Positions 44,249 through 61,490 of a stretch of DNA of 64,000 nt are shown here, in pieces. How positions within the stretch are numbered: the first letter of the stretch is position 1; the number at the start of each line of letters is the position of its first letter. The stretch comes from PVC group bacterium. GTDB lineage: Bacteria; Auribacterota; Erginobacteria; Erginobacterales; Erginobacteraceae. The stretch is taken from positions 6,498 to 70,497 of the forward strand of contig JAXGWO010000001.1 of assembly GCA_040773245.1 (NCBI GenBank), in the 5' to 3' direction. Below the pieces are notes generated by a model, which saw only the letters and a program-made list of their open reading frames with translations, did no database searches and was not told the DNA's origin. The translations under genes were made by a program, and so were the position numbers.

Positions 44249-44285
44249 CTCTATCCTCTTCTTTTGCTGCCGGGCGGCCCGGCGG

Positions 44286-45494: not shown

Positions 45495-45679
45495 TTCCGT
45501 CTCCTCCTCCAGGTAAAAGAGATTCTCTAACCGGGCGTTCAGAACCCGCAGTATGAAGAAAACGCGCCGGAATGGCAAGCGGGAAAGGGGGGGACAACCA
45601 AACCGCCGGCCCCGGGCGCACCAAAAAAAGGGGTCCCGGCTCTCCGTAAAGAGCCGGGGCCCCGCGGTCCAGACCGGTC

Positions 45680-46708: not shown

Positions 46709-47740
46709 TTACTTCAGCGTGGAGAGATGGCCGGCCAGACGGATCTTCCTGGCGTCGGTGACCAGGATCGCCCGGCGGGTCCCCGCCGCGGGGGTGGCAA
46801 GATCGACCATCGTCCCCCTCAGGCTGACCCGGTCGCCCCGCCAGAGCTCGCCCCGCAGGGCCCCGTGGTAGACGACCAGCTCCCGGTCGGCCTCCGGCTT
46901 TCCGTCGGCGCGCTTGATCCCGGTCAGGCGGACCAGGGCCGGGAGGTAGAGGTTGTGGATGTCGTCGTCCACCGTCCCTTCCAGGTCCACCTCCTCCTCG
47001 ACCGCCTCCATCTCGAAATCCAGCAGGGGGATTTGGGCGGGATCGGAGTAACGGAAGAAGGGGCAGATCAGGGTGCCGGCGAAGTGGAACCGGATCGGCC
47101 ACTCCTTGCCCAGCTCCACCACCCGTCCTTCCGGATGATCGGCCAGGTAATTCCGAATTCGGCCGGCGACGGCGGCGTTCTCCTCCGGGGACCCGATGAA
47201 GACCAGGTCGACATCGTCCTCGACCAGGCCGTAGGAGAGGGATCCGGTCGCGCCGGTCCGGTCCGGGTCCCAGTCGAGCAGCCGGCAGGTCTTCCGGACG
47301 GCGTCGTCGATCCAGGGATATCCCCCGCGGAGCACCCGCATCGAATGAACGGCGTCGAAGAGACCGCGGCAGCCGGAGAGCGGAAAGCGGACGAGGTGGC
47401 GGGCGTAGATCGGTTTCTCCCCCTGGGACGAACGGAGCTCTGGCGCGACCCGGAACTGGTTCTCCAGCTGCCGGTCGTCGGGGATCATCCTCAGCTCGCC
47501 ATCGACGTACTCCCGGTGGGTCCAGCCGTATCTTCTCCCGAAGAGATCGATGTGCCCGCCGGGGAGCGGATACTTGATGATCATCCCCCAGAAGGCTCCG
47601 GGCGGGTGGGCGTAGCCCTCGGCGAAGACGAAACTTCCGTCCTTCCGGAGAAAATAGGTGCTGTCCATCACCGGCCCCGAAAATTCCGAGAGCGGGACCA
47701 GGAACTTTTTGATCACTTCATCAAATCTATCCCGGGTCAT
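46709..47740 (-). CDS. Uncharacterized protein, paralog 1 of a four-member family carrying a mid-protein Pol-beta-superfamily nucleotidyltransferase signature
   Basis: It has GATGSLSYGLVEDDVDLVFIG, which fits the NTase signature G[GS]-x8-10-D-h-D-h. Family-specific motifs are also present: TYFLRKDGSFVFAEGYAHPP, WPIRF, ICPFFRY and VVYHGALRGELWRGDRV. Confidence 0.5.
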   Translation of the reverse strand: MTRDRFDEVIKKFLVPLSEFSGPVMDSTYFLRKDGSFVFAEGYAHPPGAFWGMIIKYPLPGGHIDLFGRRYGWTHREYVDGELRMIPDDRQLENQFRVAPELRSSQGEKPIYARHLVRFPLSGCRGLFDAVHSMRVLRGGYPWIDDAVRKTCRLLDWDPDRTGATGSLSYGLVEDDVDLVFIGSPEENAAVAGRIRNYLADHPEGRVVELGKEWPIRFHFAGTLICPFFRYSDPAQIPLLDFEMEAVEEEVDLEGTVDDDIHNLYLPALVRLTGIKRADGKPEADRELVVYHGALRGELWRGDRVSLRGTMVDLATPAAGTRRAILVTDARKIRLAGHLSTLK

Positions 47741-47837
47741 AACCTGTCCCTTCCTGATGTCAGACGGTCAACCAAAGATGAAGGCATCATAGCTCGCCGG
47801 GGGGCGCGGTTCAAGATTTAATAATCACCGATCGCCC

Positions 47838-49373
47838 TTGCCAGAACCGGCGGAATGGGCCAGAATGCCCGCTGCGGATATGAAACCGGGTCCCCAGTTA
47901 GTTGCCCTGCTGCTCGCCCTGGCCGCCGTTCCGGGCGGGGAAGGGGAGCCGCTTCCCCGCCCGGAGATAGCCCCGGGATCGGTGGTCCGGCTCAGCCAGT
48001 CCGACCCCGCCGGTTACGTCAGGACAGGGAACGACGCCCGCGGCCCCGGGCTTCTCCTCACCTTCCCCCCGGTCGAGATGACCGTTACCTCCGACCCGGC
48101 GGTCCGGCTGGCGGGGGCGACGGAGGCGGGGGCCCGGGTCCTGATCAACGGGAAGCCGGTCAAGGTCTATCACGCCGGTTCCTTCGTCGCCCTGGTTCCC
48201 CTCGCCGGCGGGGAGAACTCGATCATCGTGACCGCCGCCGGCGGGAAGGGAGAGACCGTCTGTCCCCTGGCCATCCGCCGGGAGAAGACCGCCCCCGCCG
48301 GGAAGGAGCGGACCGAATTCCACCTCCCCCTTCCCGGCCGGATCGCGGCCGGGCCGGAGCCGGTACGATCGCTCCCGGCCGGACCGCGGATTCTCACCGC
48401 CCCCCCGGGGGCGGCCCTCCGGATCACCGGGAGGGAGGGGAGCTGGCTGAGGGCCGACCTCGGCGGCGGTATCTCCGGTTGGATCCCCGCCTCCGCCGTG
48501 GAACTGGGGGACGAACCGCCGCCGGAACCGGTCCGGGTGGGCGACGTCAGCTTCAGCGCGGAAAAGTCGGAGGCCTGGTTCTCCCTGGAGGGCCCGGCGC
48601 CCGCCCGGGTCGACTACCTCGGGCCCGAAGAACTGGACCTGGTCTTTCACCACGCCGCTCCGGCCACCGAGACGATCGATCTCGGGGAGTGGGAGGGGAT
48701 CTGCGTGCCGGCCCCCTCCGGGGAGGGGACCGCGGTCTACCGGCTCCGCGGCGGCCTGGACTGTCACCGCTGGTCGCTGGACTGGCTGCCGGGGGGTTAC
48801 CGCCTCCGCTGGCGGGGACGGCCCCGCCGGGAGGAGGGACCGGTCGGCCTCGACCCCGGCCACGGGGGAAGGCAGCGGGGAGCGGTCAGCCCCTCCGGGG
48901 TAACGGAAAAGGACGCCAACCTCGCCCTGGCCCGGGCGGTGGCGGCGGAACTGGCGAAGGCGGGTGTTACGTCGTTCCTGACCCGGGACGGTGACCGGAC
49001 GCTGGGCCTGGAGGAACGCATCGAGGCCGCCCGCTCCAGGGGGGCCGGGGTCTTGGTCTCCCTCCACCACAACTCGGTCGGCGACGCACGCGATCCGCTC
49101 TCCGGATCCGGCTACACCATCTTCTACTACCATCCTCCGGGGAGGGAGCTGGCCGGGTGCATCCACCGCGCCCTGGAAGCGGCCGGCCGGGAGGGCGCCG
49201 GGGTCCGCCGGCGGAGCCTGGCCCTGATCCGGCCCCCCGACCTGGTGACCGCCCTGGTCGAGACCGCCTACCTCTCCCACCCGGAAGACGAGGCGGAGAT
49301 CCTCGATCCCGCCGTCCGGAACGATACCGCCCGGGCCATCGCCCGGGCCATCCTTGACTATCTCGACCGTTGA
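47838..49373 (+). CDS. N-acetylmuramoyl-L-alanine amidase (Amidase_3 catalytic domain at the C-terminus; N-terminal domain unknown)
   Basis: The C-terminal Amidase_3 pattern reads GLDPGHGG...GVTEKDANLALARAVAAELAKAGV...RDGDRTLGLEERIEAARSRGAGVLVSLHHNS. The signal peptide probably starts at MKPGPQ (about 47880). The tracked start is a TTG. Confidence 0.75.
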   Translation: MPEPAEWARMPAADMKPGPQLVALLLALAAVPGGEGEPLPRPEIAPGSVVRLSQSDPAGYVRTGNDARGPGLLLTFPPVEMTVTSDPAVRLAGATEAGARVLINGKPVKVYHAGSFVALVPLAGGENSIIVTAAGGKGETVCPLAIRREKTAPAGKERTEFHLPLPGRIAAGPEPVRSLPAGPRILTAPPGAALRITGREGSWLRADLGGGISGWIPASAVELGDEPPPEPVRVGDVSFSAEKSEAWFSLEGPAPARVDYLGPEELDLVFHHAAPATETIDLGEWEGICVPAPSGEGTAVYRLRGGLDCHRWSLDWLPGGYRLRWRGRPRREEGPVGLDPGHGGRQRGAVSPSGVTEKDANLALARAVAAELAKAGVTSFLTRDGDRTLGLEERIEAARSRGAGVLVSLHHNSVGDARDPLSGSGYTIFYYHPPGRELAGCIHRALEAAGREGAGVRRRSLALIRPPDLVTALVETAYLSHPEDEAEILDPAVRNDTARAIARAILDYLDR

Positions 49374-49482
49374 CAGCCGTCCGTGGGAAGATTATCCTGC
49401 TGGCGGCGTTTTCAAACCGGGTGGCGATTTTCGAAGTACAAGTCTTTCCCAACTAAAATTTTTCCGAAGGAAAAATTTTACA

Positions 49483-50436: not shown

Positions 50437-51536
50437 CCCCCCCGCCCGGGAAACCGAAACTGGCTTTCGTGGTCAAGTACTACCGCCCGATGCCGCGGCT
50501 CTCGGGGATTCTCCGCTTCGCGATCGACCTGGTCGAGAACCTGGAGGCGGAGTTCGAGATCCGGGTCTTCACCAGCCGCTACTCGCCGGAGGTCCCGGAA
50601 TACGAGAGGTGCCGCGGCCACGAGATCGTCCGCCTGCCGGGCCCCTTTCCCTTCCGGGCCGGATGGTCGGCCGGGAAGTGGGACCCCGACCTGACCGTCT
50701 TCGGGTCGGGATTCTGGCGATCCTGGTTCCTCCTGCCCTACTGGTTCCTCTTCCGTTGCGGCCTGGGGCGGGCAAACGGACCCGTAATCCTGGCCCAGTT
50801 CACCAATATGACCGGCCGGTTCTTCCGGCTGCTCCGCCTCCTCCGCCCCCGCCCGGCGGCGGTGATCGCCCTCACCGAGCCGCTCCGGGAGCGGTGGGAG
50901 AAACTCCTCCCCGGACTGACCGCCTTCATCCCCGCCGGGATGGCGCTCCCCTCCCCGGAACAAAAGTTCCCGGACCCGGAGATCCCCCCCTCCCCCTTCC
51001 GGATCGGGTTCTTCGGGCACCTGGAGCCCCACAAGGGGCCGGATATCCTGCTGAGAATCTATAAGGAACTCAATCCGCCGGGGACCGACCTGATGATCAA
51101 CGGGGTGGGAGAGATGGAGGAGGAACTCCGGCGGGATTCCCGGGGCTGGAAGAATATCGCCATCCAGGGCTACGTCCCGGAGATCGACCCCTGGATCCAC
51201 TCCTGCAAGCTGATGGTCTTCCCCTACCGCTCCAGCGTCTCGGTCCTCGGCTACTCGCGGGCGGCCCTCGACGGCCTGGCCGCCGGCATCCCCCTGATCG
51301 TCACCTCCTCCCCCGCCCTCGCCCCCCTGGTCCGGGACGGTGAGAACGGCTATGTCTGCCGGAACGAGGAGGAGATCAAGGAGAAGATCCGGGCCGTCAT
51401 CGCCGACCCGGGCCTCCGGAAAAAGCTCGCCGCCGGCGCGAGGCGGGCCGCCGAAGAGTACGACATCCGCCGGATCGCCGGGCGGTGGTCGGAGTTGTTG
51501 CGGAGGGTGGGGGGGATAGTAAGCAGTGAGCAGTAA
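50433..51536 (+). CDS. Glycosyltransferase family 1/4 (GT-B)
   Basis: The C-terminal GT4 motif region reads GYVPEIDPWIHSCKLMVFPYRS...GLAAGIPLIVTSSP...DGENGYVC. Its last codons and its stop lie inside composite repeat A. Confidence 0.75.
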   Translation: MTPPPGKPKLAFVVKYYRPMPRLSGILRFAIDLVENLEAEFEIRVFTSRYSPEVPEYERCRGHEIVRLPGPFPFRAGWSAGKWDPDLTVFGSGFWRSWFLLPYWFLFRCGLGRANGPVILAQFTNMTGRFFRLLRLLRPRPAAVIALTEPLRERWEKLLPGLTAFIPAGMALPSPEQKFPDPEIPPSPFRIGFFGHLEPHKGPDILLRIYKELNPPGTDLMINGVGEMEEELRRDSRGWKNIAIQGYVPEIDPWIHSCKLMVFPYRSSVSVLGYSRAALDGLAAGIPLIVTSSPALAPLVRDGENGYVCRNEEEIKEKIRAVIADPGLRKKLAAGARRAAEEYDIRRIAGRWSELLRRVGGIVSSEQ

Positions 51537-51778
51537 GCAGTGAGCAAAGTGCAAAGAGCATAGCGCATAGCGCCAGGGCATAGAGATTCGCGGTTGAGAT
51601 GGGGAGTGGGCAGTAGGCACAAGTCGATCCAATCCGTGTAATCTGTGTAATCAGTGGACTAAAAAGAGGGCGGGGCGAGGTTGATTAAAATAATTCGTGG
51701 CAATTAGTGGAATTAGTGGACAGCCAAAGGGGGCGCGGCGGGGGTTGATGAAAATTAATTCGTGGTAATTCGCGGACG
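51511..51778. repeat. Modular composite repeat, copy A (long form, about 270 bp)
   Basis: The module order is GCAGTGAGCAGTAAGCAGTGAGC, then GCATAGCGCATAGCGCC, then CGCGGTTGAG, then GGGGAGTGGGCAGTAGGCA, then CAAGTCGATCC, then GTGTAATCTGTGTAATCAGTGGA, then AGAGGGCGGGGCG, then TTGATTAAAA, then AATTCGTGGCAATTAGTGGAATTAGTGGA. It is AT-rich relative to the genome. Confidence 0.8.
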
Positions 51779-51782
51779 GAAG

Positions 51783-53255
51783 ATGAAGATGGTGAGAGGG
51801 ACAGCCTACCTGGCCGCCGCCGAGGTGGTCTTCGTGATCAGCGGCTGGATCATCCACGTCGGCTCGAAGCGCATCCTGGGATTGGTCGAGTACGGGACCT
51901 TCGGCATTCTCCTCTCCCTCCTCACCCACTACCGGATCTTTCTCGCCACCGGGGTCAACCGGGCGGTCTCCCGGGAGATCTCCCGGGAACCCTCCCGGGA
52001 CCGATCGATCCGGAGGGGGGCGCTGAAACTCCAGCTGGGCCTGGGCCTGGGCCTGGGCCTGGCGGTCTGGCTGGCGGCGCCGGGGCTTTCCGGGATCTGG
52101 GGGGATCCGCGGTTCACCGGCTATATCCGGCTGACCGCCTTCTTCCTCCCCGCCTTCGGGATCTACTCGGTCTACCGGGGCGTCCTCAACGGCCACACCC
52201 TCTTCGGGGCGGAGGCCCGCGTATCCATCATCTATTCCGGCCTCAAGGTCGCCGGCCTCTTTTCCCTCATCTTCCTCTTCTCCGCGCTGGGCCGAGACCG
52301 CGTCTCCGGGGCGGTCGGCGGGTACCTGGCCGCCGTCACCGGGGCGGTCTTCCTGGCCCGGGCGCTCTGCCCGCCAGCCGGGGGGGAGGACGGCCCCCCG
52401 TTCCCGCTGGGGAAGATCGCCGCCTTCGCCTTCCCGGTGGTTCTCTTCTCCTTCATCATCAGCCTGGTCCAGCATCTGGACCTCTACTTCGTCCGCGCGC
52501 TGCTGCCGGAGGAAGCCGAGGCGGCGGGGCTTTACACCTGCGCCCAGCAGTTCGCCCGGATCCCCTATATGTTCCTCTACGCGCTGAGCCTGACCATCTT
52601 CCCCGTGGTCGCCGGACGGATCGCGATCGCCGGCGGGGAAACGGCCGCGGCCGCCACCATTCGGCGGGCCCTGAGGGGAGGGCTGCTGGTGGTCCTGCCG
52701 CTGGCCGCCCTGATCGGCGCCAACGCCAGATCCCTGCTCGGCTGGGTTTACGGCCCGGACAGCGCGGCCGGGTCGGCGGCCCTGGAGGTCCTGATCTTCG
52801 GCCAGACCCTCCTCGCTCTTCTCCTGGTCCTGGCCACCGTCATCACCGCCCGGGGGCGGCCCTGGGTCTCCTTTTCCCTGGTCACCGCCACCCTGGCGCT
52901 GGCCGGGATCCTGAATAATTACCTGGTCCCGGAAGCCGGGATCCGGGGAGCGGCGATCGCCACTACCGTGGCCGCCGGGTTGGGGATGGCGGGGGCGGGG
53001 GTGATCGTCTACCGTCTCTTCGGGGCCCTCTTCCCGCCGGCCGCCACCGCCAGGATCGCGGCCGCGGCGGCCCTGGTCTTCGCCCTCGGCCGCTGGTGGG
53101 CGCCGGCCGGCTGGCTGCTTCCCCCGGCCCTGGCGACCCTGGCCGGGGTCTACCTGCTCGTTCTCTTCGGGCTGCGGGAGCTGACCCCCGGCGACGGGAA
53201 GATGATCCTCTCCCTCTTCCGCAAGCCTCCCCCCGCCCCCGGTATAGTCCACTAA
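51783..53255 (+). CDS. Polysaccharide flippase/exporter of the MOP superfamily (Wzx/MATE-like)
   Basis: It has about 12-14 TM helices, and the length and helix spacing are typical of Wzx/MurJ/polysaccharide biosynthesis proteins. The start was taken as MKMVRG. It is bracketed by inverted copies of the composite repeat. Confidence 0.6.
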   Translation: MKMVRGTAYLAAAEVVFVISGWIIHVGSKRILGLVEYGTFGILLSLLTHYRIFLATGVNRAVSREISREPSRDRSIRRGALKLQLGLGLGLGLAVWLAAPGLSGIWGDPRFTGYIRLTAFFLPAFGIYSVYRGVLNGHTLFGAEARVSIIYSGLKVAGLFSLIFLFSALGRDRVSGAVGGYLAAVTGAVFLARALCPPAGGEDGPPFPLGKIAAFAFPVVLFSFIISLVQHLDLYFVRALLPEEAEAAGLYTCAQQFARIPYMFLYALSLTIFPVVAGRIAIAGGETAAAATIRRALRGGLLVVLPLAALIGANARSLLGWVYGPDSAAGSAALEVLIFGQTLLALLLVLATVITARGRPWVSFSLVTATLALAGILNNYLVPEAGIRGAAIATTVAAGLGMAGAGVIVYRLFGALFPPAATARIAAAAALVFALGRWWAPAGWLLPPALATLAGVYLLVLFGLRELTPGDGKMILSLFRKPPPAPGIVH

Positions 53256-53480
53256 TTTCACTAATTACCACGAATTTTTTAATCAACCCCGCCCCGCCCT
53301 CTTTTATTCGTCCACTGATTACACAGATTACACGGATTACACGAATTGGATCGACTTGTGCCTACTGCCCACTCCCCCCCTCAACCGCGAATCCCGCAAA
53401 TCTATACGAACCTGTCCCCCGTTAACTTCGAACTTTGAACTTCGAACTTTGAACTTCTTACCCCACTCCCCATTCCCCGA
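53249..53480. repeat. Modular composite repeat, copy B (inverted relative to copy A)
   Basis: Its reverse complement matches copy A over about 140 bp, from CGCGGTTGAG through GTGTAATCAGTGGA to AATTCGTGGTAATTAGTGAAATTAGTG. It also carries a tandem CGAACTTTGAACTT x2 and a CCCCACTCCCCATTCCCC module. It starts at the flippase stop codon. Confidence 0.8.
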
Positions 53481-53547
53481 TTGACTCTTCGGCTCAACAA
53501 ATATATTCTTAACGCCTAACGTTAACTTTCGCCCAAGAGACCGCGCC

Positions 53548-54228: not shown

Positions 54229-54278
54229 ATGCCACTCCCGGGCCCGGCCCGCCGCCGATAACAATCGGAGCGACCCCA

Positions 54279-56219
54279 GTGCGCGATCTCCCCGGATTCC
54301 GGGTCCTCTGTCCCCTCTTCTGCCTGCTCCTGGCCGCGATGGCCGTCTTCACCGAGTGGGAGGTTCACGGGCCGTCCACGATCCGGCACCACCTGGAGTG
54401 GCTGGAGACAACCATCGGTCCCGGGGGACCGTGCTTCCAGCTCTCCGGAAGAGCGCTGCTTTCCTCAAGCCGGCTCGCGGTGCGCGCGGGACTGCCGGCG
54501 GCGTGGGGGTTCACCACCCTGCGATTTGCCCAGAACGCGCTGATCCTGGGCCTGGCCCTGGCCTGGTGGCGGCGACTGGCCGTCCCGCCGCCCCGGCGGC
54601 TGATCGGCCTGCTGATGCTGGCCTGGGGACTGCTCTACGCCTTCCGGGAAGGTGGCATCGAGACCGGGCTCTTCTGGGCCGCGGCCTGGATCCTGGCCGG
54701 GATCATTCTCCTGGACTCCGGCCGGAGGAATTTCTACCCCCTGCTGGCTTTCACCGGCGCCCCCTGGAGCGTCTTCTCGGTTATCCTCCCCTTCCTGCCC
54801 CTGGCCGGGAGCGGGGGCGGCCGCGGACGGACCTGGCGGCTCGCCCTCCTCTCTCTCCCCGCTTGGCTGGCCGGGGCCTGGTTGTTCGGCAATCCCCCCA
54901 GCCGGCCCTGGCCCCCGGTCTCCTGGGGACACCGGCCCGGGTTCGACCTGCTGGCCTTCAACCTCGCCCACAGCCTGACCTGGGTGAGACTGATCTGGCT
55001 GGCCAACATCCTCCCCCTCCTCGCCCTGGCCCGGCTGGCGGAGTGGCCGAGGCGGCTGCGGAGATTGCTCCCGGTCTCCCTGATCCCGGCGGGCGTCGCC
55101 CTCCTGGCATACTTCTTCCCCGAATACCGGGTGATCGTCATCCCCCTGGCCGCCTGCCTGATCCCGGGGTTCCTGCTCCTCCCGGCGAAGCCGAACCCCG
55201 CCTTTTCGCGCCTCCGGAGGGCACTGCGCTCCGAAGGGCTGCTGATCGCCCTGCTCGCCCTGGCCGCCCTCTACTCCCAGCTCTGGGTTCTGGGGGGGGT
55301 GGGGGGGCGGTACCTGGGGGAATCCCAGCCGGAACGCCACCGGGAGGTGATGGCCGGAACCGCTTCCAGCCCCTGGCGCTACCGCGTCTTCTCCGAATAC
55401 CTGGTGGAGGGAAGCCTGCGGCTGGGCCGGGCGGCCGGAGTCGAAGAACCGGGGCCGGTCTTCGCCCTCTTCCGCCTCCTCCAGAACCTGCTGATCTTCT
55501 GGCTGGCGGCCAGGCTCTACCGCACCTGGGGATTTGCCCCGGACCAGCGGGCGATCGGCCTGGTCCTGGCCGGCTGGGGGATGATGCACGCCTTTTACAA
55601 CAGCGACCTCTGCTTCAGCACCTACACGGACCTGATCATCTACCTTCTCGGGACCCTCTCCGTGATCAAGGGGAGGATAGGCTGGATTGTTCCGTTGACC
55701 GCCATCGCCGCCTTAAACCGGGAGACCGGCGTGCTGCTCCCCGCCCTGCTCATCCCCGGCGCCCTTAGGAGGGAAGGCCGCCGGTCCTGGATGCTCTTCC
55801 TGGCCGCCGCCGGGGTGTTCTTCGCGATCTTCTTCTCGCTCCGGCTTCTCCTGCTCCCGGGAGGTGATTTCGCCCAGGCCTGGGGTGGACCCGGCTGGCC
55901 GAGACTGCTGGGCAATCTCTCCAACCCCCTGTTCTGGCGAAACTTTTTTCTGCTCGCCAACTTGTTGCCGCTGGCCGGCATATTGGCAGTGCGCCGCTGG
56001 CCGCGCCAGCTTCGAGAATTTTTCATTGTTTTGGTCCCGGCCTGGTTGTTCCTGCATCTGTATGCCGCTTATGCGGAGGAATCAAGGATCTTCCTGGTCC
56101 CGCTCTTCCTGGGGTTTGTCCCCGCCGTCCTCTGCCTGCTGACGGGCGGGGACCCGGCGGGAAGGTCTCCTGACCGCCCCCCGGTTCGGGACGGCGGGAT
56201 TTTAGCCCTTGACTCCTGA
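54279..56219 (+). CDS. Large polytopic membrane protein, possibly a GT-C-type glycosyltransferase or polymerase
   Basis: It has about 16 or more predicted TM helices and sits within the glycan locus next to two Dpm1-like GT2 genes. No catalytic motif could be assigned confidently. Confidence 0.4.
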   Translation: MRDLPGFRVLCPLFCLLLAAMAVFTEWEVHGPSTIRHHLEWLETTIGPGGPCFQLSGRALLSSSRLAVRAGLPAAWGFTTLRFAQNALILGLALAWWRRLAVPPPRRLIGLLMLAWGLLYAFREGGIETGLFWAAAWILAGIILLDSGRRNFYPLLAFTGAPWSVFSVILPFLPLAGSGGGRGRTWRLALLSLPAWLAGAWLFGNPPSRPWPPVSWGHRPGFDLLAFNLAHSLTWVRLIWLANILPLLALARLAEWPRRLRRLLPVSLIPAGVALLAYFFPEYRVIVIPLAACLIPGFLLLPAKPNPAFSRLRRALRSEGLLIALLALAALYSQLWVLGGVGGRYLGESQPERHREVMAGTASSPWRYRVFSEYLVEGSLRLGRAAGVEEPGPVFALFRLLQNLLIFWLAARLYRTWGFAPDQRAIGLVLAGWGMMHAFYNSDLCFSTYTDLIIYLLGTLSVIKGRIGWIVPLTAIAALNRETGVLLPALLIPGALRREGRRSWMLFLAAAGVFFAIFFSLRLLLLPGGDFAQAWGGPGWPRLLGNLSNPLFWRNFFLLANLLPLAGILAVRRWPRQLREFFIVLVPAWLFLHLYAAYAEESRIFLVPLFLGFVPAVLCLLTGGDPAGRSPDRPPVRDGGILALDS

Positions 56220-56271
56220 TGGAATACGTTTATTTTCCCCGGAACAAACTGATTATTTCCAGGAGCGAATT

Positions 56272-57384
56272 ATGCCCGACATCATATCCCGGCTGCGCGA
56301 GAACCCGAAGTTCCACCGCTTCCTGGAACCGGTCGACCTCTCGGCCGACTTCCGGGACGCCACCTACTTCCTGAGGAAGGACGGGACGATGGTCTTCTCC
56401 GAAGGGTACTACCACGGCATCGAAAAACCGCTTCCGGAACGCGAGGTGGTCTCCCACATCGTCTTCATCCCCTGGAATGATCGGCGGCCGGGGCCGGACT
56501 ATGCCCGGAAGGATATCTTCGGGCAGCTCTACGAGAACATCACCAAGGAGATAATGAACAATAACCCCCTCGACCGCTTCTATCCCCTCCAGCTCGAGCG
56601 GTACATCGAGGTCGACCCCTCCCAGCGGGAGAAACGGCGCCCGGTCTACGCCCGCTACAAGTCCCTGGTCCCGGTGTCGGAACTGATCGGCTGCTTCCCC
56701 ACCCGCCACTCCCTCCAGGCGATCATCGACCGGGCCGGCGAGGAAGAAGCGGCGGACAACATCCGGGTGGTGACCGAACACACCGCCGAGCTGCTGGGAA
56801 TCGAAGTCGGCCGGATCGGGATCTCCGGCTCGCTTTCCCTGGGGACCTACGCCGACCCCCACGATGTCGATTACGTCATCTATGGAACATCGGCGGAGGT
56901 CAGGCGGATGGTTCGGTTTATGCAGAAGCTGACCGACACCGAAGAGAAGCGCCGGGTCCGCGAGTTCGGGAAATACTGGCCGATCCGGTTCTGGGACTGG
57001 GCGGGGGGAAAGAAGTTTATGATCTGCCCCTTCTTCTCCTACCTCGACCCGGAAGAAGCCCCGCTGCGGAACTTCGACTGCGAGGATCTCGGACCGGCGG
57101 AGATCACCGCCCGGATCGCCGACGACACCCACAACGCCTTCAATCCGACCTATCTGCTGATCGAGGGGGTGAAACTCGACGGCCGGGACTGCCCCGGCAT
57201 TACCCGGCTGGTCCTCTACCACGGCGGGGAGCGGGGGGACTGGCGGGAGGGTTACCGGGTCCGGGCCCGGGGCAACCGCGTCCGGATCCGGACCTGCCGG
57301 ATGGAAGCGGGGAAGAGAATCACCCGGGAGGAGTTCGAGGCCCTGCTGGTGAACAACCTCGACCGGGTGAAGAAGGTCGGGTGA
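56272..57384 (+). CDS. Uncharacterized NTase-signature protein, paralog 2
   Basis: It has GISGSLSLGTYADPHDVDYVIYG plus the family motifs ATYFLRKDGTMVFSEGYYH, YWPIRF, ICPFFSY and LVLYHGGERGDWREGYRVRARG. The start was refined to MPDIISRL, which has an RBS aggag. Confidence 0.5.
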   Translation: MPDIISRLRENPKFHRFLEPVDLSADFRDATYFLRKDGTMVFSEGYYHGIEKPLPEREVVSHIVFIPWNDRRPGPDYARKDIFGQLYENITKEIMNNNPLDRFYPLQLERYIEVDPSQREKRRPVYARYKSLVPVSELIGCFPTRHSLQAIIDRAGEEEAADNIRVVTEHTAELLGIEVGRIGISGSLSLGTYADPHDVDYVIYGTSAEVRRMVRFMQKLTDTEEKRRVREFGKYWPIRFWDWAGGKKFMICPFFSYLDPEEAPLRNFDCEDLGPAEITARIADDTHNAFNPTYLLIEGVKLDGRDCPGITRLVLYHGGERGDWREGYRVRARGNRVRIRTCRMEAGKRITREEFEALLVNNLDRVKKVG

Positions 57385-57425
57385 GAGGAACCGGGAATAT
57401 CCGCAACTTCGGGGAGCGTATTTCA

Positions 57426-58451
57426 ATGACCAGTTTTTTCGACCAGGTAAAATACAACGATAAGTTTCGGGACTTCGTCCTCCCGATGGAAGAGCTGGCC
57501 CTGATCCGGGACGCCACGATCTTCGTCCACCAGGACGGCTTCCTTCTCTTCTCGGAAGGTTACTGCCACCCGCCGGGCAAACTGATCTGCAATATCATCT
57601 ACATCCCGGACCCGAAGGGGAAGAAGGAGGTCTTCGGCCTCCCCTACCGCTCGATCATCAAGCGGGACCAGGACGGCGAGGAGGCCTGGGTCAACTACGA
57701 GTCCCAGCTGGAGATCTACCGGGAACTGGCTCCGGAGTCCCAGGTCGGCAAACCTCCCTACGCCCGCTACAAGTGCCAGTTCGACCTCGCCGACCTGGTC
57801 GGCTTCGTCGATCACCGCCGCTCGCTGAAGAAAGCCCGGGAACTCTCCCCGGAGATCGACCAGGCGATCCACAACGTCGCCGGGATGCTCCGGATCGACC
57901 CCGAAACCATCGGGGTCACCGGTTCGCTCTCGCTCGGCAACCTGAAGACCGCCCACGATTTCGACCTGGTCTTCTACGGCACCGTCGCCGAGAGCTGGAA
58001 GATCGTCGACCAGATCTACCGGATCGTCGAAGACCCCAAGCGCCAGGTCTTCGAGATGGGGATGCTCTGGGCGATCCGTTTCTTCGACGACTGGGGGAAT
58101 ATGATCTGCCCTTTCTTCTCCTACACCGACCTCTCCGAGATTCCGCTCAAGGATTTTTCGATGGAGATGGAGGAAGGCGGGCTGGAGATGGAGGGCACGG
58201 TGACCGACGACCGGCACACCTTTTATATGCCCTCGGTCCTCCGGCTGGCCGAGTCTTCCATCCCGGGCCGCCGGGACCTGTCCGAGCTGGACCTGATCCT
58301 CTACCACGGGGGACTCCGCGGCGAATACCGGGTCGGCGACCGGGTCCGGGCCCGGGGCGACCTGGTCCGGGTGACCGGCCGGAATGGTTCTTATCCCGCC
58401 TTCCTCTGCACCAACCTGAGCGAGACCGGGAAGGTGGGCAGTGGGGAGTAG
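57426..58451 (+). CDS. Uncharacterized NTase-signature protein, paralog 3 (in tandem with paralog 2)
   Basis: It has GVTGSLSLGNLKTAHDFDLVFYG plus the family motifs ATIFVHQDGFLLFSEGYCHPP, ICPFFSY and LILYHGGLRGEYRVGDRVRARG. Its stop codon lies inside composite repeat C. Confidence 0.5.
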   Translation: MTSFFDQVKYNDKFRDFVLPMEELALIRDATIFVHQDGFLLFSEGYCHPPGKLICNIIYIPDPKGKKEVFGLPYRSIIKRDQDGEEAWVNYESQLEIYRELAPESQVGKPPYARYKCQFDLADLVGFVDHRRSLKKARELSPEIDQAIHNVAGMLRIDPETIGVTGSLSLGNLKTAHDFDLVFYGTVAESWKIVDQIYRIVEDPKRQVFEMGMLWAIRFFDDWGNMICPFFSYTDLSEIPLKDFSMEMEEGGLEMEGTVTDDRHTFYMPSVLRLAESSIPGRRDLSELDLILYHGGLRGEYRVGDRVRARGDLVRVTGRNGSYPAFLCTNLSETGKVGSGE

Positions 58452-58503
58452 GGAGTAGGCAGTGGGCAGTGGACAGAGAGCAGAGCGCATAGAGCATAGC
58501 GCC
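58432..58503. repeat. Modular composite repeat, copy C (short form)
   Basis: It reads GGTGGGCAGTGGGGAGTAGGGAGTAGGCAGTGGGCAGTGGACAGAGAGCAGAGCGCATAGAGCATAGCGCC, which corresponds to the GGGAGT/GCAGTGGGCAG and GCATAGCGC modules. Confidence 0.75.
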
Positions 58504-58540
58504 AGTAACTAACCATCAGCGGACTGAACAGGGATTAAAA

Positions 58541-59827
58541 ATGAAAACAAAGACCAAATCCGTGAAGACAACGAAACCCCCAGCCGAGACCAACCCGCTG
58601 AGGCTGGCCCTCAGCCAGCTCGACCGGGTGGCGAAGAAGATCAAGCTCGACCCCTGCATCCACGAAAAGCTCAAGCACCCCAAGACCATCCTGATCGTCT
58701 CGGTCCCGATCAAGATGGACAACGGGAAGCTGAAGGTCTTCACCGGCTACCGGGTCCAGCACAACATCGACCGGGGCCCCTCCAAGGGGGGGATCCGTTA
58801 CCACCCCGAGGTCTCCCTCGACGAGGTCCAGGCCCTGGCGATGTGGATGACCTGGAAGTGCTCGGTGATGGGTTTGCCCTACGGGGGGGCGAAGGGCGGG
58901 GTCTGCTGCAACCCGAAGAAACTCTCCGAGCGGGAGCTGGAGAAGATCACCCGCCGCTTCACCACCGAGATCACCCCCTTCATCGGACCCCGGAAGGACA
59001 TCCCCGCCCCCGACGTCTACACCAACCCCCAGACGATGGCCTGGATGATGGACACCTTCAGTATGCACTCGGCCTACGCCGTTCCCGGGGTAGTCACCGG
59101 CAAGCCCCTGGAGATCGGCGGTTCCTACGGCCGGAACGAAGCCACCGCCCAGGGCTGCGTCTTCGCCGTCGAGGAGTTTCTGAACTACCGGGGGAAGGAA
59201 CTGGCCGGGTCCACGGTAGTCATCCAGGGCTACGGGAACGCCGGGTCCTTCGCCCACAAGATCGCCCAGGCCGAGGGAGCCAAGGTGATCGCCGTCTCCG
59301 ACAGCAAGTCCGGAATCGTCAACCCCGCCGGTCTCGACTACCCGGCCGTCTCCGCCTTCAAGGAAAAGACCGGCTCGGTGAAGAACTTTCCCGGGGCCAG
59401 GAACATCACCAACCGGAACCTCCTGGAGCTGGAATGCGACGTCCTGATCCCGGCGGCCCTGGGCAACCAGATCACCGCCGCCAACGCCCCCCGGATCAGG
59501 GCCGGCCTGGTCGCCGAGGCCGCCAACGGCCCCACCACCGAAGAGGCCAACGCCGTCCTCCACCGGCGGGGGATCCCGGTCATCCCCGACATCGTCGCCA
59601 ACGCCGGGGGGGTGGTGGTGAGCTGCTTCGAGTGGGCCCAGAACCTGATGGGCTACTTCTGGACCGCGGAGGAGGTGAGCTGCCGCCTCCAGGACATTAT
59701 GGTCCTGGCCTGTCGGAAGGTCTGGGAACTGGCGCAGAAGGAAAAGATCGACCTCCGCCTGGCCGCTTATATGGTGGCAGTGAGCCGGGTGGCCGAAGCC
59801 GCCCGCCTCCGCGGCATCTACCCCTGA
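58541..59827 (+). CDS. gdhA: Glutamate dehydrogenase (Glu/Leu/Phe/Val dehydrogenase family, about 428 aa)
   Basis: The catalytic region reads KGGIRYHPEVSLDEVQALAMWMTWKCSVMGLPYGGAKGGV. The Rossmann motif is GYGNAGS, and GGVVVSCFEWAQN is present. Confidence 0.9.
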   Translation: MKTKTKSVKTTKPPAETNPLRLALSQLDRVAKKIKLDPCIHEKLKHPKTILIVSVPIKMDNGKLKVFTGYRVQHNIDRGPSKGGIRYHPEVSLDEVQALAMWMTWKCSVMGLPYGGAKGGVCCNPKKLSERELEKITRRFTTEITPFIGPRKDIPAPDVYTNPQTMAWMMDTFSMHSAYAVPGVVTGKPLEIGGSYGRNEATAQGCVFAVEEFLNYRGKELAGSTVVIQGYGNAGSFAHKIAQAEGAKVIAVSDSKSGIVNPAGLDYPAVSAFKEKTGSVKNFPGARNITNRNLLELECDVLIPAALGNQITAANAPRIRAGLVAEAANGPTTEEANAVLHRRGIPVIPDIVANAGGVVVSCFEWAQNLMGYFWTAEEVSCRLQDIMVLACRKVWELAQKEKIDLRLAAYMVAVSRVAEAARLRGIYP

Positions 59828-59843
59828 GCCGGCCCCAAATATA

Positions 59844-60021
59844 TCACCGCGGAGGCGCGGAGGGCGCAGAGAAATATTTTTATTAGTCTGGCCTGGGAAA
59901 GACTGCTGACCTCGGAGCGGCAGAAAAGCGCACCGAGAATTATTCCCGGATGATCCAGCCCGCGAACCCGGCCGACAATCCCCAACCACCCTCCCCGCGT
60001 CCTCCGCGTCTCCGCGGTGAA
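59844..60021. repeat. GC-rich 30-bp TIR element, copy 3 (arms at about 59844-59874 and 59991-60021, AT-rich core of about 115 bp)
   Basis: The left arm is TCACCGCGGAGGCGCGGAGGGCGCAGAGAAA and the right arm is CTCCCCGCGTCCTCCGCGTCTCCGCGGTGAA. It fills the gap between the gdhA stop and the convergent paralog-4 stop. Confidence 0.8.
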
Positions 60022-60031
60022 TTCCCGCGGG

Positions 60032-61084
60032 TCAGCCGGCGGATCTTTCCTGCTTGCCCTTCAGGTAGGGGACGCCCTCCCGGAAGCGCTCGAGCTCGAT
60101 GTCGAAGCCGTCGACCACGGCCAGGGCCGGGGTCTTCTTTCCGTCCTTGACCAGGTTGACCAGGCGGCCCTTGATGTGGAGCCGCAACCCCTCGCGGAAC
60201 TCGCCCCGGACCGCCCCGTCGTAGATGATCAGCCGAATGTCATCGGCCTTCCGCCCGTCGAGATATACGTTCTCCAGCTCGAGCACCACGGGAACGTAAA
60301 GCGAGTGGAGGTTGTCGGCCACCGTCCCGTAGGCCTCCACGCTCTCCTTCACCAGTTCCACCTCGCAGTCCCGGACCGGGGCGTCGAGGAGGTTGCGGTA
60401 GACGTAGAAAGTGCAGACTTCCTCTTGATCGACGTAGATCTTGAGCGGCCAGAACTTGCCGTACTCCACCACCTGGTGCTCCGGTTTGCTGTAAACGATC
60501 CCCCAGAGCTTCCGGACGGTGGCGAGGTTCTCCTCCGGGGTCCCGAAGAAGACCAGGTCGATGTCCGCCCCCTGCCTCCCCAGGGCCGAGGAACCGGTTA
60601 TCCCCAGGTGCCCGAGGGGGACCTCGAAGAGTTCGGAGGTCATCCGGACCACCTCGTCGACCCGGGGATAATGGGCCATCACGTACTTGAGCGCCTCCTG
60701 GTCGTTGAAGTAGCCGACGAAACTCTCCCGGGGGAAGGCCACCTGGTACTCGGCCAGGATCAGCTGGTGGGAGTCGGGGGGCAGGTCGGGGAAGAGCCGG
60801 TAAAGCTTGCCGATCTGGTCGCGGTGGGAGACGTAAACCTCCTCCCCGTCCCGGATCTCCTTGACGATGCTGGAGTACCTCCGGCCGTGGATATCCTTCT
60901 CCCCGTCAGGATCGGGGTAGTAGATCAATTTCCCGACCACCGAGTCCGGGGGATGCCAGTACCCCTCGGTATAGACGAAACTTCCGTCGCGGCGCATCAG
61001 GTAGGTGGTGTCGAGCGGCCCCAGCTTCAGCTCCGACATCGGCCGCAGCAGTTCCCCGATCACTTCATCGAATCTGTCGCCCAT
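60032..61084 (-). CDS. Uncharacterized NTase-signature protein, paralog 4
   Basis: It has GITGSSALGRQGADIDLVFFG plus the family motifs TTYLMRRDGSFVYTEGYWHPP, FWPLKIY and LIIYDGAVRGEFREGLRL. Its N-terminus MGDRFDEVIGELL matches paralog 1 (MTRDRFDEVIKKFL). Confidence 0.5.
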   Translation of the reverse strand: MGDRFDEVIGELLRPMSELKLGPLDTTYLMRRDGSFVYTEGYWHPPDSVVGKLIYYPDPDGEKDIHGRRYSSIVKEIRDGEEVYVSHRDQIGKLYRLFPDLPPDSHQLILAEYQVAFPRESFVGYFNDQEALKYVMAHYPRVDEVVRMTSELFEVPLGHLGITGSSALGRQGADIDLVFFGTPEENLATVRKLWGIVYSKPEHQVVEYGKFWPLKIYVDQEEVCTFYVYRNLLDAPVRDCEVELVKESVEAYGTVADNLHSLYVPVVLELENVYLDGRKADDIRLIIYDGAVRGEFREGLRLHIKGRLVNLVKDGKKTPALAVVDGFDIELERFREGVPYLKGKQERSAG

Positions 61085-61097
61085 CGCCAGCTTCCTC

Positions 61098-61490
61098 CAC
61101 TGATTATCATCGTTTGATCCGCCCCCTCGCCTCTCCCCCTTTTTTATCCACTAATTACACGAATTACCTCTAATTGAGTTTTATTCCCCCTACCTCGCCC
61201 TCTTTTGAAACCACGAATCTCCACTGATCTTCACGGGCAAACTCTACCTCGCCCCCGTTTTCAGTCCACTGATTACACAGATTACACGGATCGGTCGATT
61301 TGTTCCCACTGCCCAATCCCCATCTCAACCGCGAATCCCGCGAATCTCTGCGAATGAATATAATCACTATCGGTATCGCTATCGGTATCGAGACTAGTTG
61401 GGTTGCACTATGCTCAATGCGCTCTGCTTACTGCTCACTGGGCTCTATGCGCTATGCGCTTTTCCTCATTCCCCACTCCCCAAACCCGCC
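61098..61490. repeat. Modular composite repeat, copy D (longest copy, about 390 bp, in the same orientation as copy B)
   Basis: It carries all the modules: CCACTGATT, CCACTAATTACACGAATTAC, TCCACTGATTACACAGATTACACGGAT, CACTGCCCA, CTCAACCGCGAATCCCGCGAATCT, tandem TATCGGTATCGC x2, GCGCTCTGCTTACTGCTCACTG, GCGCTATGCGC and CCCCACTCCCC. It overlaps the stop of the large GDH-like gene. Confidence 0.8.

What the first reader, a model, noticed from the sequence alone, without database searches (positions are those of the whole stretch)
46709..61084. Four-paralog family of about 350-aa proteins with a mid-protein Pol-beta-type nucleotidyltransferase signature, clustered around a glycan-assembly locus
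There are four divergent copies in 15 kb. One of them is a tandem pair at 56272-58451. All share colinear motifs: TYFLRKDG(S/T)xV(F/Y)xEGYxHPP, GxxGSxSxG-x5-(D)xDxVxxG, (K/Y/F)WP(I/L)(R/K)F, ICPFF(R/S)Y and (V/I)(L/V)YHG(G/A)xRG(E/D)xRxGxR. The G[GS]-x9-D-h-D-h pattern is the classical minimal nucleotidyltransferase (Pol beta, GlnE, CCA-adding, MNT) motif. Here it sits at about residue 170-200, not near the N-terminus, and is preceded by a conserved domain of about 160 aa that I cannot assign. The overall size and motif position are reminiscent of Pol X palm domains, but no HhH motifs are present. These proteins may be a new family of NTases, for example protein or glycan nucleotidylylation or a signalling nucleotide synthase. 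The paralogs sit at both ends of, and immediately downstream of, the flippase/GT locus. That placement, together with the tight interleaving with the composite repeats, suggests an accessory and possibly mobile gene family.
Basis: partly seen in the sequence, partly recalled or inferred. Interest (0 to 1): 0.75.

Follow-up and report, generated by a model that had tools for sequence, protein, structure and literature searches.

The report
Conserved seven-paralog nucleotidyltransferase family, uncharacterised
Four related genes here encode an unstudied three-part enzyme of the nucleotide-transferring (Pol-beta-like) kind; they are four of seven ancient copies kept by genomes of a little-known bacterial phylum, they are not mobile, and their substrate is unknown.

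Summary
There are four colinear paralogs: A 46709-47740(-), B 56272-57384(+), C 57426-58451(+) and D 60032-61084(-). They are 30-38% identical (E 1e-40 to 1e-73).

An AlphaFold model (pLDDT 95) shows three domains:
- an N-terminal SH3-like/helical domain with no recognisable relative;

No Pfam, NCBIfam, PADLOC or PDB sequence match reaches threshold.

The genes are not accessory or mobile. About 20 Auribacterota MAGs carry seven orthologous subfamilies (A-G) in conserved arrangements: A then YbjQ, a B-C tandem, D, and a separate E-F-G triplet. Codon usage is native and there are no phage or plasmid relatives. Wallbacteria share the B-C pair. Adjacency to the glycan locus holds only in close relatives. 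All 123 copies keep the catalytic residues.

Remote branches of the same superfamily sit in tetrahydromethanopterin-biosynthesis clusters (some fused to HPPK) and in actinobacterial operons with a PycTM effector.

Best reading: active, possibly heteromeric nucleotidyl (phosphodiester-forming) transferases with an unknown, probably small-molecule, acceptor. This is an unmodelled family within a known superfamily.

The parts
46709..47740 (-). Paralog A (343 aa), orthogroup A
   Evidence: ORF. Homology to B, C and D. Orthogroup assignment.
56272..57384 (+). Paralog B (370 aa), orthogroup B; this is the protein that was modelled
   Evidence: AF2 model, pLDDT 95.2, pTM 0.92.
57426..58451 (+). Paralog C (341 aa from the ATG at 57426; an alternative GTG start at 57381 overlaps B's stop), orthogroup C
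   Evidence: P0075 is identical from MTSFF.
60032..61084 (-). Paralog D (350 aa), orthogroup D
56272..56700 (+). B residues 1-143: N-terminal domain with two short helices, a five-stranded SH3-like barrel, a helical segment and a beta-hairpin. It carries the motif ATYFLRKDGTMVFSEGYYH at 56359-56415.
56701..57057 (+). B residues 144-262: minimal Pol-beta-type nucleotidyltransferase core
57058..57381 (+). B residues 263-370: C-terminal OB fold with the conserved loop LYHGGERGD (57214-57240)
56818..56877 (+). B G-S...D-x-D motif: GISGSLSLGTYADPHDVDYV (G186, S187, D198, D200)
   Evidence: The residues are invariant in 123/123 family members.
56956..56988 (+). B VREFGKYWPIR: candidate third catalytic carboxylate E231, plus W236 and R239
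47201..47254 (-). A G-S...D-x-D motif: GATGSLSYGLVEDDVDLV
57912..57971 (+). C G-S...D-x-D motif: GVTGSLSLGNLKTAHDFDLV
60551..60604 (-). D G-S...D-x-D motif: GITGSSALGRQGADIDLV
46122..46547 (-). YbjQ_1 (UPF0145) gene immediately downstream of A; this is the only neighbour conserved with A across distant genomes
   Evidence: Pfam. A followed by YbjQ on the same strand in 10 A-type loci.
58541..59827 (+). Glutamate dehydrogenase (428 aa) downstream of C; a frequent but not universal neighbour of the B-C pair
   Evidence: Pfam. Synteny.
61466..63934 (-). Large NAD-GDH-like gene (822 aa) upstream of D on the same strand; a frequent neighbour of D
   Evidence: Pfam. Synteny.

Best explanation
The four genes are four (A, B, C, D) of seven ancient, vertically inherited paralogs (A-G) of an uncharacterised three-domain enzyme family of the candidate phylum Auribacterota.

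Shown: each protein has an N-terminal SH3-like/helical domain, a minimal Pol-beta-superfamily nucleotidyltransferase core, and a C-terminal OB-fold barrel. Every copy keeps the G-S turn, the D-x-D pair and a third glutamate.

Inferred: each is a catalytically active, two-metal-ion enzyme. It transfers a nucleotidyl group, or another phosphodiester-linked group, from an NTP-type donor to a hydroxyl acceptor and releases pyrophosphate.

Inferred, weaker: the tandem, tightly spaced or overlapping genes (B-C here; E-F-G elsewhere in these genomes) suggest heteromeric enzymes rather than redundant isoenzymes.

Inferred, weakest: the acceptor is more likely a small metabolite, or possibly a protein, than a nucleic acid or the neighbouring glycan. 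The reasons are that the proteins and their OB domains are acidic, and that remote branches of the same superfamily are embedded in a cofactor (tetrahydromethanopterin) biosynthesis cluster and in a PycTM-effector operon.

They are core chromosomal genes, not a mobile or accessory family.
For: Homology and motifs:
- Full-length homology and shared motifs among the four paralogs.

Structure:
- AF2 model of B has pLDDT 95.2; the 1-262 fragment has 92.8.

Catalytic motifs:
- G-S and D-x-D align with a minimal NTase (2rff) and with kanamycin NTase.
- Relatives P0203 (24.1 bits) and P0391 (28.6 bits) pass the Pfam NTP_transf_2 cutoff of 21.
- G186, S187, D198, D200 and E231 are invariant in 123/123 members from about 20 MAGs.
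- E231 lies on predicted strand 228-231, directly after helix alpha-3.

Conserved, non-mobile family:
- There are seven orthogroups, and five MAGs hold exactly one of each. Identity is 54-62% within groups and 27-45% between them.
- Conserved arrays are B-C in 20/20 genomes, E-F-G triplets with 4- and 8-nt overlaps, and A followed by YbjQ.
- Wallbacteria carry orthologs of B and C in tandem, plus two more copies within 8 kb.
- GC3 equals that of the neighbouring genes.
- No relatives were found in viral contigs or plasmids.

Acceptor:
- Whole proteins have pI 5.3-5.9 and the OB domains carry a net charge of -1 to -5.
- hhalign probability is 100% (E 3.5e-58) to the actinobacterial/other set and 99.4% (E 4e-21) to the H4MPT-cluster branch, across all three domains.
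- The H4MPT branch sits next to DmrB/AfpA-like and MptH-like genes in three independent loci, and some members are fused to FolK-type HPPK.
- The Streptomyces branch lies in a five-gene operon that ends in PycTM.
Against: - There is no biochemical evidence of any kind.
- I could not obtain the model coordinates. The spatial clustering of D198, D200 and E231, and the orientation of the OB barrel towards the active site, are therefore unverified.
- An OB fold of the RPA/SSB/aaRS type is classically a nucleic-acid binder. This favours an RNA or DNA acceptor.
- Heteromer formation rests only on gene order and spacing. No fused paralogs were seen among 150 listed representatives.
- The contexts that point to a small-molecule acceptor come from branches only about 20-30% identical to the window proteins, so function may differ.
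- Neighbourhoods in Auribacterota (YbjQ, GDH, LpxA-like, NupC, glycosyltransferases) give no single coherent pathway.
Confidence: 0.55

Rival explanations
1. RNA/tRNA (or ssDNA) 3'-end nucleotidyltransferases. The OB fold binds a single-stranded nucleic acid and the NTase core adds nucleotides, as in tailing, repair or MenT/CCA-like tRNA modification. The seven paralogs would have different RNA targets.
Against: The proteins and their OB domains are acidic in all seven orthogroups (pI 5.3-5.9; OB net charge -1 to -5). They lack the PAP/TUTase-type C-terminal RNA-binding domain. No RNA-processing genes are conserved next to them in Auribacterota. No tRNA or Rfam element lies in the window. Remote branches sit in small-molecule contexts.
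Confidence: 0.2
2. Protein nucleotidylyltransferases (AMPylases or UMPylases of the GlnE/GlnD/MntA kind) that regulate neighbouring gene products, for example the two glutamate dehydrogenases or YbjQ.
For: By sequence, the nearest profiles are the minimal NTases of the MNT/KNT group. The block C then GDH, and large GDH then D, recurs in genomes where the upstream genes differ (L011, L012, L015, L030, L066). A is followed by YbjQ in 10 loci. That GlnE and GlnD are Pol-beta-fold NTases regulating nitrogen assimilation by nucleotidylylation is established knowledge recalled from memory.
Against: GDH adjacency is lost in the more distant Auribacterota genomes (L019-L025) and in Wallbacteria. The E-F-G triplet has unrelated neighbours (LpxA-like, NupC). 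No known case of GDH nucleotidylylation is available to me. Nothing explains the need for seven paralogs.
Confidence: 0.12
3. Glycan or envelope-modifying enzymes of the adjacent flippase/glycosyltransferase locus. This is the first reader's idea: nucleotidylylation of a glycan, or LicD/fukutin-like phospho-alcohol transfer to it.
For: In the window and its close relatives, A and B-C bracket an amidase-GT2-GT1-flippase-GT2-membrane protein locus. Other family members lie next to a GT2/GT1 fusion and an LpxA-like gene, and next to NeuB/CMP-sugar synthetase/WbqC genes in Wallbacteria. That LicD-type enzymes are NTase-fold proteins is recalled from memory.
Against: The adjacency is seen in the 8 B loci at least 75% identical to the window's B. 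It is absent in at least 6 more distant loci that have enough flanking sequence (L011, L012, L019-L021, L025) and in Wallbacteria L001. There is no Pfam LicD or sugar-nucleotidyltransferase match at E up to 1. A's conserved partner is YbjQ, not the glycan genes. The proteins have no signal peptide or membrane segment evident in the sequence or model.
Confidence: 0.08
4. Signalling-nucleotide synthases (CD-NTase-like), possibly components of a defence or signalling system.
Against: The window proteins lack the C-terminal helical domain of CD-NTases and have no PADLOC or SMODS match. There is no effector-like gene next to any of the seven Auribacterota orthogroups. Strict one-to-one orthology across a phylum and native codon usage are unlike defence islands.
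Confidence: 0.07
5. A mobile or accessory gene family spread by the neighbouring composite repeats.
For: Composite intergenic repeats lie downstream of C (58421-58502) and upstream of D (61253-61440).
Against: The same repeats also flank the flippase gene (51499-51721 and 53247-53410), and none brackets a paralog as a unit. Orthologs and gene order are conserved across about 20 MAGs and in Wallbacteria. There are no viral or plasmid relatives. GC3 is the same as in neighbouring genes. No transposase or integrase turned up among the ORFs I annotated in 43-64 kb.
Confidence: 0.02

Closest known systems
Minimal nucleotidyltransferases of the Pol-beta superfamily (Pfam NTP_transf_2 PF01909 / Polbeta PF18765; e.g. 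kanamycin nucleotidyltransferase, MNT/MntA-type enzymes)
   Same: The helix-strand(G-S)-helix-strand(D-x-D)-helix-strand(E) core is shared. The spacing is G-S x10 D-x-D. Weak profile alignments place G-S and D-x-D on the corresponding residues of 2rff and KNTase. Remote relatives pass the PF01909 cutoff.
   Different: The window proteins score below the Pfam cutoff (13.2 against 21 bits, or no hit). The core sits in the middle of a 340-370 aa protein, between an unassigned 140-aa N-terminal domain and an OB fold. There is no HEPN partner and no KNTase-type helical C-domain.
cGAS/DncV-like nucleotidyltransferases (CD-NTases), Pol X palm domains and non-canonical poly(A)/(U) polymerases
   Different: Only 85-120 residues superpose, with rmsd 3-6 A. 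The helical substrate-binding domain (PAP/OAS type) and the Pol X fingers, thumb and HhH elements are absent. There are no Pfam or PADLOC matches.
Unnamed 'predicted nucleotidyltransferase' branch found in tetrahydromethanopterin/methanofuran biosynthesis clusters (Chloroflexota and others; also labelled by JGI 'Uncharacterized protein conserved in archaea')
   Same: The three-domain layout is colinear. hhalign probability is 99.4% (E 4e-21) over 288 columns, including the N-terminal EG..HP motif, G-S/D-x-D and the OB 'RG...GD.V' region.
   Different: Identity is only about 22%. There is an insertion after helix alpha-3. Members are single or double copy rather than seven. The genomic context is different and coherent: next to DmrB/AfpA-like flavoprotein and an MptH-like pterin-binding gene, with some members fused to HPPK. 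This branch is itself uncharacterised and has no Pfam or NCBIfam model.
Actinobacterial branch in PycTM-containing operons (Streptomyces microflavus, Streptomyces sp. NL15-2K, Actinoplanes)
   Same: The architecture is the same. hhalign probability is 100% (E 3.5e-58) over 297 columns, and the ExGKxWxxR, CxFF and RGxFxxGD motifs are shared.
   Different: Identity is 25-30%. Members are single copy, in a five-gene operon with three unknown proteins and a Pycsar-type transmembrane effector, next to TIR-STAND genes. Nothing of that kind lies near the window genes.

Membership tests
Pol-beta-like nucleotidyltransferase fold superfamily | h-G-[GS] turn between strand 1 and helix 2 | tested here: met
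   G186-S187 (B numbering) are present in all four paralogs and invariant in 123/123 relatives. They align to the G-S of 2rff and of KNTase.
Pol-beta-like nucleotidyltransferase fold superfamily | [DE]-h-[DE]-h on strand 2, about 10-13 residues after G-S | tested here: met
   D198-x-D200 lie on predicted strand 198-205. They are invariant in 123/123 members and in 98% of 83 remote relatives.
Pol-beta-like nucleotidyltransferase fold superfamily | Third catalytic carboxylate on a neighbouring strand, close in space to the D-x-D pair | tested here: inconclusive
   E231 is invariant and sits on predicted strand 228-231, right after helix 207-223. E231 is kept in only 63% of remote relatives in an automatic alignment.
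Pol-beta-like nucleotidyltransferase fold superfamily | alpha/beta core superposable on known NTases | tested here: met
Pol-beta-like nucleotidyltransferase fold superfamily | Nucleotidyl-transfer activity | not testable with these tools
   This needs an enzyme assay.
Pfam NTP_transf_2 (PF01909) | Score at or above the gathering cutoff (21 bits) | tested here: not met
   B and D score 13.2 bits (E of about 0.1). A and C have no hit. Remote relatives P0203 (24.1 bits) and P0391 (28.6 bits) do pass.
DNA polymerase X family | Palm plus fingers, thumb and 8-kDa/HhH DNA-binding modules | tested here: not met
CD-NTase / SMODS (CBASS-type signalling synthases) | NTase core plus C-terminal helical domain; family HMM match; adjacent effector gene | tested here: not met
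   There is no Pfam or PADLOC match. The C-terminal domain is an OB fold. The neighbours are YbjQ, GDH and glycan genes.
MNT-HEPN type VII toxin-antitoxin minimal NTases | NTase of about 100-150 aa encoded next to a HEPN gene | tested here: not met
   The proteins are 341-370 aa with three domains. No HEPN domain occurs among the neighbours. NCBIfam MntA scores only E 0.01-0.03, and only in remote relatives.
LicD/fukutin-type phosphotransferases of glycan loci | Match to the LicD family model; conserved linkage to glycan or teichoic-acid genes | tested here: not met
   There is no LicD hit at E up to 1. Glycan-locus adjacency is not conserved beyond close relatives.
Unnamed three-domain superfamily (SH3-like N-domain, NTase, OB; JGI label 'predicted nucleotidyltransferase') | Colinear three-domain homology across branches | tested here: met
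   hhalign gives probability 100% (297 columns) against the A4 set and 99.4% (288 columns) against the A5 set. The exhaustive HMM search finds 447 cluster representatives at E up to 1e-3, most of them 310-370 aa.

The most novel reading that the evidence does not exclude
The four genes are components of a phylum-wide, fixed set of seven catalytically intact paralogs that assemble into heteromeric enzymes (B-C, E-F-G, perhaps A and D with partners). These belong to a previously unrecognised three-domain branch of the Pol-beta superfamily that forms phosphodiester bonds on small molecules. Other branches of the same superfamily would then be a missing enzyme of tetrahydromethanopterin biosynthesis (the HPPK-fused, DmrB/MptH-linked branch) and the signal-making or signal-sensing partner of PycTM effectors in actinobacteria.
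Probability: 0.2. Interest if true: 0.8.

Novelty: new variant of a known kind. Interest (0 to 1): 0.5.

Why it matters
The catalytic fold is familiar. The family is not. It has no Pfam, NCBIfam, PADLOC or PDB representative, it has a domain architecture I could not match to any solved structure, and I found no paper that describes it.

In Auribacterota it is kept as seven one-to-one orthologous copies, all with intact active-site residues. That pattern points to a housekeeping process specific to this uncultured lineage (and Wallbacteria), which current annotation misses entirely.

The wider superfamily reaches two places where enzymes are actively sought. The first is the tetrahydromethanopterin biosynthesis clusters, where it is fused to HPPK in some genomes. 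From memory, several steps of that pathway still lack assigned enzymes. The second is a PycTM-effector operon in Streptomyces, which looks like an undescribed defence system.

Characterising any one member would give a functional handle on thousands of 'hypothetical' proteins.

Tried and rejected
- Curated family libraries. Pfam, NCBIfam and PADLOC gave nothing above threshold for the window proteins or for remote branches.
- PDB by sequence. There was no significant hit with three different profiles. The best were 2rff at E 0.55 and KNTase at E 0.29.
- Foldseek against the PDB with the full model gave nothing at E up to 1e-3.
- The AlphaFold-database libraries were not available, so no full-length structural homologue could be sought.
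- My recollection that this might be COG1665 could not be checked. A literature search for that term found nothing. JGI's labels 'predicted nucleotidyltransferase' and 'Uncharacterized protein conserved in archaea' show that some COG-type model exists.
- Mobile-element reading. It is rejected on synteny, GC3, absence from viral contigs and plasmids, and the repeat layout.
- Functional link to the glycan locus. It is rejected as not conserved.
- Rfam and tRNA scans of the window were empty.
- Literature searches on Auribacterota, PycTM plus nucleotidyltransferase, and methanopterin plus nucleotidyltransferase found no description of the family.
- A first attempt at a neighbour-joining tree timed out. 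I replaced it with average-linkage clustering on pairwise identity. The orthogroups therefore rest on clustering and synteny, not on a bootstrapped phylogeny.

Full report
**Observation.** The region holds four ORFs of 341-370 aa: A 46709-47740(-), B 56272-57384(+), C 57381/57426-58451(+) and D 60032-61084(-). They align over their full length with 30-38% identity and blastp E-values between 8e-40 and 8e-73. tblastn finds no further copy in the 64-kb window. B and C form a head-to-tail pair. B's stop overlaps a possible GTG start of C, and the database version of C begins at the ATG at 57426.

**Anatomy.** An AlphaFold2 model of B, built on a 58-sequence alignment, has mean pLDDT 95.2 and pTM 0.92. 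It shows three domains.

**Is the G-S/D-x-D segment an active site?**
- In sequence searches the window proteins stay below every curated threshold. Pfam NTP_transf_2 scores 13.2 bits against a cutoff of 21 for B and D, and nothing for A and C. NCBIfam and PADLOC give nothing.
- The weak alignments nevertheless put G-S and D-x-D exactly on the corresponding residues of a minimal NTase (2rff) and of kanamycin nucleotidyltransferase.
- Remote members of the same family pass the Pfam cutoff: P0203 at 24.1 bits and P0391 at 28.6 bits.
- D198 and D200 lie on predicted strand 198-205.
- An invariant glutamate, E231, lies on the next strand after helix alpha-3. This is the position expected for the third metal ligand.
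- G186, S187, D198, D200 and E231 are unchanged in all 123 family members I collected.

I could not obtain model coordinates, so the spatial clustering of the three carboxylates is inferred, not measured.

**Distribution and evolution.** The closest database relatives come from Candidatus Auribacterota/Aureabacteria MAGs (Euphemobacter, Tritonobacter, Erginobacter, 'PVC group') and from Wallbacteria. All are annotated as hypothetical or, by JGI, 'predicted nucleotidyltransferase', with no Pfam domain. The window itself comes from a 174,787-bp NCBI contig of such a MAG.
- A scan of one genome per GTDB species found 55 loci in about 20 MAGs. An HMM search of their ORFs found 123 family members.
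- Clustering resolves seven orthogroups. A, B, C and D are the four in this window. E, F and G always form a separate tandem triplet.
- Identity is 54-62% within orthogroups and 27-45% between them. Five MAGs hold exactly one of each. The others are consistent with incomplete recovery, and a few carry extra solitary B-type copies.
- Arrangements are conserved. C follows B in 20/20 genomes. E-F-G genes overlap by 4 and 8 nt in a called contig. A is followed on the same strand by a YbjQ_1 gene in 10 loci. D often lies after a GDH gene and next to a large NAD-GDH-like gene.
- A Wallbacteria contig carries orthologs of B (50%) and C (47%) in tandem, plus two further copies within 8 kb. Another Wallbacteria gene is E-like.
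- GC3 of A-D (0.86-0.90) matches that of the neighbouring genes (0.86-0.94).
- No relatives were found in 2.9 million viral contigs or in PLSDB plasmids.

These genes are therefore an old, vertically inherited, core-like set, not an accessory or mobile family.

**The glycan locus.** In the window, A and B-C bracket genes for an amidase, GT2, GT1, a flippase, GT2 and a 646-aa membrane protein. The same layout occurs in the relatives whose B is at least 75% identical. It is absent in at least six more distant Auribacterota loci with enough flanking sequence, and in Wallbacteria (L066). No LicD-type or sugar-nucleotidyltransferase signature is present. The adjacency is lineage-specific synteny and carries little functional weight. 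Glycan or envelope genes do recur near other members: a GT2/GT1 fusion and an LpxA-like gene by E-F-G, and NeuB/WbqC in Wallbacteria. A role in the envelope therefore cannot be excluded.

**The wider superfamily.** An exhaustive profile search of 1.84 billion cluster representatives finds 447 at E up to 1e-3, mostly 310-370 aa.
- *Actinobacterial branch.* It shares all three domains (hhalign probability 100%, E 3.5e-58, 297 columns). In Streptomyces microflavus and relatives it is the first gene of a five-gene operon with overlapping stops and starts: this gene, then proteins of 406, 461 and 277 aa without any family match, then PycTM. The operon lies beside TIR-STAND and HTH genes. In Streptomyces sp. 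NL15-2K the same gene set has PycTM in front.
- *H4MPT-cluster branch.* This much larger branch has more than 2,400 90%-identity clusters. It also shares the three domains (probability 99.4%, E 4e-21, 288 columns). It lies inside tetrahydromethanopterin/methanofuran biosynthesis clusters, next to a DmrB/AfpA-like flavoprotein and an MptH-like pterin-binding gene, in three independent loci. Two copies occur in one of them, and some members are fused to FolK-type HPPK.
- *Methyltransferase fusion.* One representative has a SAM-dependent methyltransferase in place of the OB region.
- None of these branches has a Pfam, NCBIfam or PDB representative, and I found no paper describing them.

**Mechanism: shown and inferred.**
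- *Shown:* the fold, the conserved catalytic residues in every copy, the seven-orthogroup structure, the conserved gene arrays and the absence of mobility signals.
- *Inferred with fair confidence:* each protein is an active two-metal nucleotidyl (or related phosphodiester-forming) transferase.
- *Inferred with lower confidence:* tandem, tightly coupled genes encode heteromeric enzymes. Some minimal NTases such as KNTase build their active sites across a dimer interface (from memory). No fused paralogs were seen to back this up.
- *The acceptor is unknown.* The OB fold suggests a nucleic acid. However, all seven orthogroups are acidic (pI 5.3-5.9) and have acidic OB domains with net charge -1 to -5. 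The only coherent genomic contexts anywhere in the superfamily are a cofactor pathway and an operon whose PycTM-type effector responds, in Pycsar systems, to a nucleotide signal. I therefore rank a small-molecule acceptor first (about 0.4). RNA/tRNA (about 0.2), a protein such as GDH or YbjQ (about 0.12), glycan (about 0.08) and signalling-nucleotide synthesis (about 0.07) follow.

**Comparison with known families.** The proteins work like minimal Pol-beta-superfamily NTases and meet the sequence and fold criteria of that superfamily. They are not members of Pfam NTP_transf_2 by its own cutoff. They are not Pol X polymerases (no fingers, thumb or HhH), nor CD-NTases (no helical C-domain, no HMM match, no effector neighbour). 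They are not MNT-HEPN antitoxins, nor LicD-type enzymes. Their nearest relatives are two equally uncharacterised branches of the same unnamed three-domain superfamily.

**Verdict.** This is a real, well-supported gene family and the NTase reading is right. The 'mobile accessory family tied to the glycan locus' reading is wrong. The novelty lies in the architecture (SH3-like domain, NTase, OB), the complete lack of curated models or structures, the fixed seven-paralog set in a candidate phylum, and the links of sister branches to H4MPT biosynthesis and to a PycTM operon. Function remains unassigned, so I rate interest as moderate (0.5). I class it as a new variant of a known kind.

Noticed in passing
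window 51499-51721, 53247-53410, 58421-58502, 61253-61440: Composite intergenic repeats. One module is GTCCACTGATTACACAGATTACACGGAT, present as 3 exact copies where 0 are expected by chance. A second is CC[CT]ACTGCCCA.TCCCC..CTCAACCGCGAATC. There are also GCAGTG/GAGCA-rich tracts. Two inverted copies (93% complementary over 72 nt) flank the flippase gene. The others lie after C and before D. They look REP/MITE-like. None brackets a paralog.
   Followed up: partly
window 46122-46547 (-): The YbjQ_1/UPF0145 gene downstream of paralog A matches the Pfam model in two stretches, which suggests an insertion in the middle of the domain. A followed by YbjQ is the most widely conserved neighbour pair of any paralog (10 loci).
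   Followed up: partly
window 54279-56219 (+): A 646-aa polytopic membrane protein at the end of the glycan locus has no Pfam match at E up to 0.05. It is present (69% identical) in L008 but was not detected between GT2b and B in the other close relatives (L005, L027).
   Followed up: no
window 58541-59827 (+) and 61466-63934 (-): Two different glutamate dehydrogenases flank paralog D. One is a 428-aa ELFV-type GDH. The other is an 822-aa protein with Bac_GDH_CD and GDH_2nd domains, which from memory is short for a 'large' NAD-GDH. This block recurs with C and D in several MAGs.
   Followed up: partly
window 43049-45578 (-): A carbamoyltransferase-like gene (OTCace domains) and an M20 peptidase lie together upstream of YbjQ and A. 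From memory, this resembles the ygeW/ygeY pair of E. coli.
   Followed up: no
L070-L072 8001-13006; L069 9373-14363: Streptomyces operon with a family member (338 aa), then proteins of 406, 461 and 277 aa without any family match, then a PycTM effector. It lies beside a TIR-STAND NTPase and an HTH gene. In strain NL15-2K the 440-aa protein has a weak PycC match (E 4e-4). This may be an undescribed Pycsar-like defence system.
   Followed up: partly
L073 8001-9062 and 10960-12012; L074 9001-10020; JGI 3300075153 contig (no DNA): A large sister branch of the family is embedded in tetrahydromethanopterin/methanofuran biosynthesis clusters. The conserved trio is family member, DmrB/AfpA-like flavoprotein and DUF6513/PterinBD. 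A CitG homologue lies nearby. Some members (P0383, P0386, P0389) are fused to FolK-type HPPK. It is a candidate for an unassigned step of H4MPT biosynthesis.
   Followed up: partly
L001 4585-12217 (Wallbacteria): Four family members lie within 8 kb, interleaved with guanylate kinase, an AAA_17/18 kinase and a NUDIX gene. They are followed by DUF5591 and queuosine-salvage genes. The first copy overlaps the end of a 1392-aa protein that has no Pfam match.
   Followed up: no
L013, L014, L016, L018, L026, L028: Some Auribacterota MAGs carry one or two extra, solitary B-type copies (49-63% identical to the window's B) without an adjacent C.
   Followed up: no
protein P0176 (533 aa; metagenomic): A family member whose C-terminal region is a class I SAM-dependent methyltransferase (best matches BioC, UbiE and ArsM types) instead of the OB fold.
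   Followed up: no
L064 4556-9914 and L029, L038, L039, L041, L045, L046: The E-F-G triplet, which is not in this window, is followed in 8 loci by an LpxA-like acyltransferase. In 7 of these (not L042) a NupC-type nucleoside transporter also follows. In L064 a GT2/GT1 fusion and a radical-SAM/SPASM gene lie upstream.
   Followed up: partly
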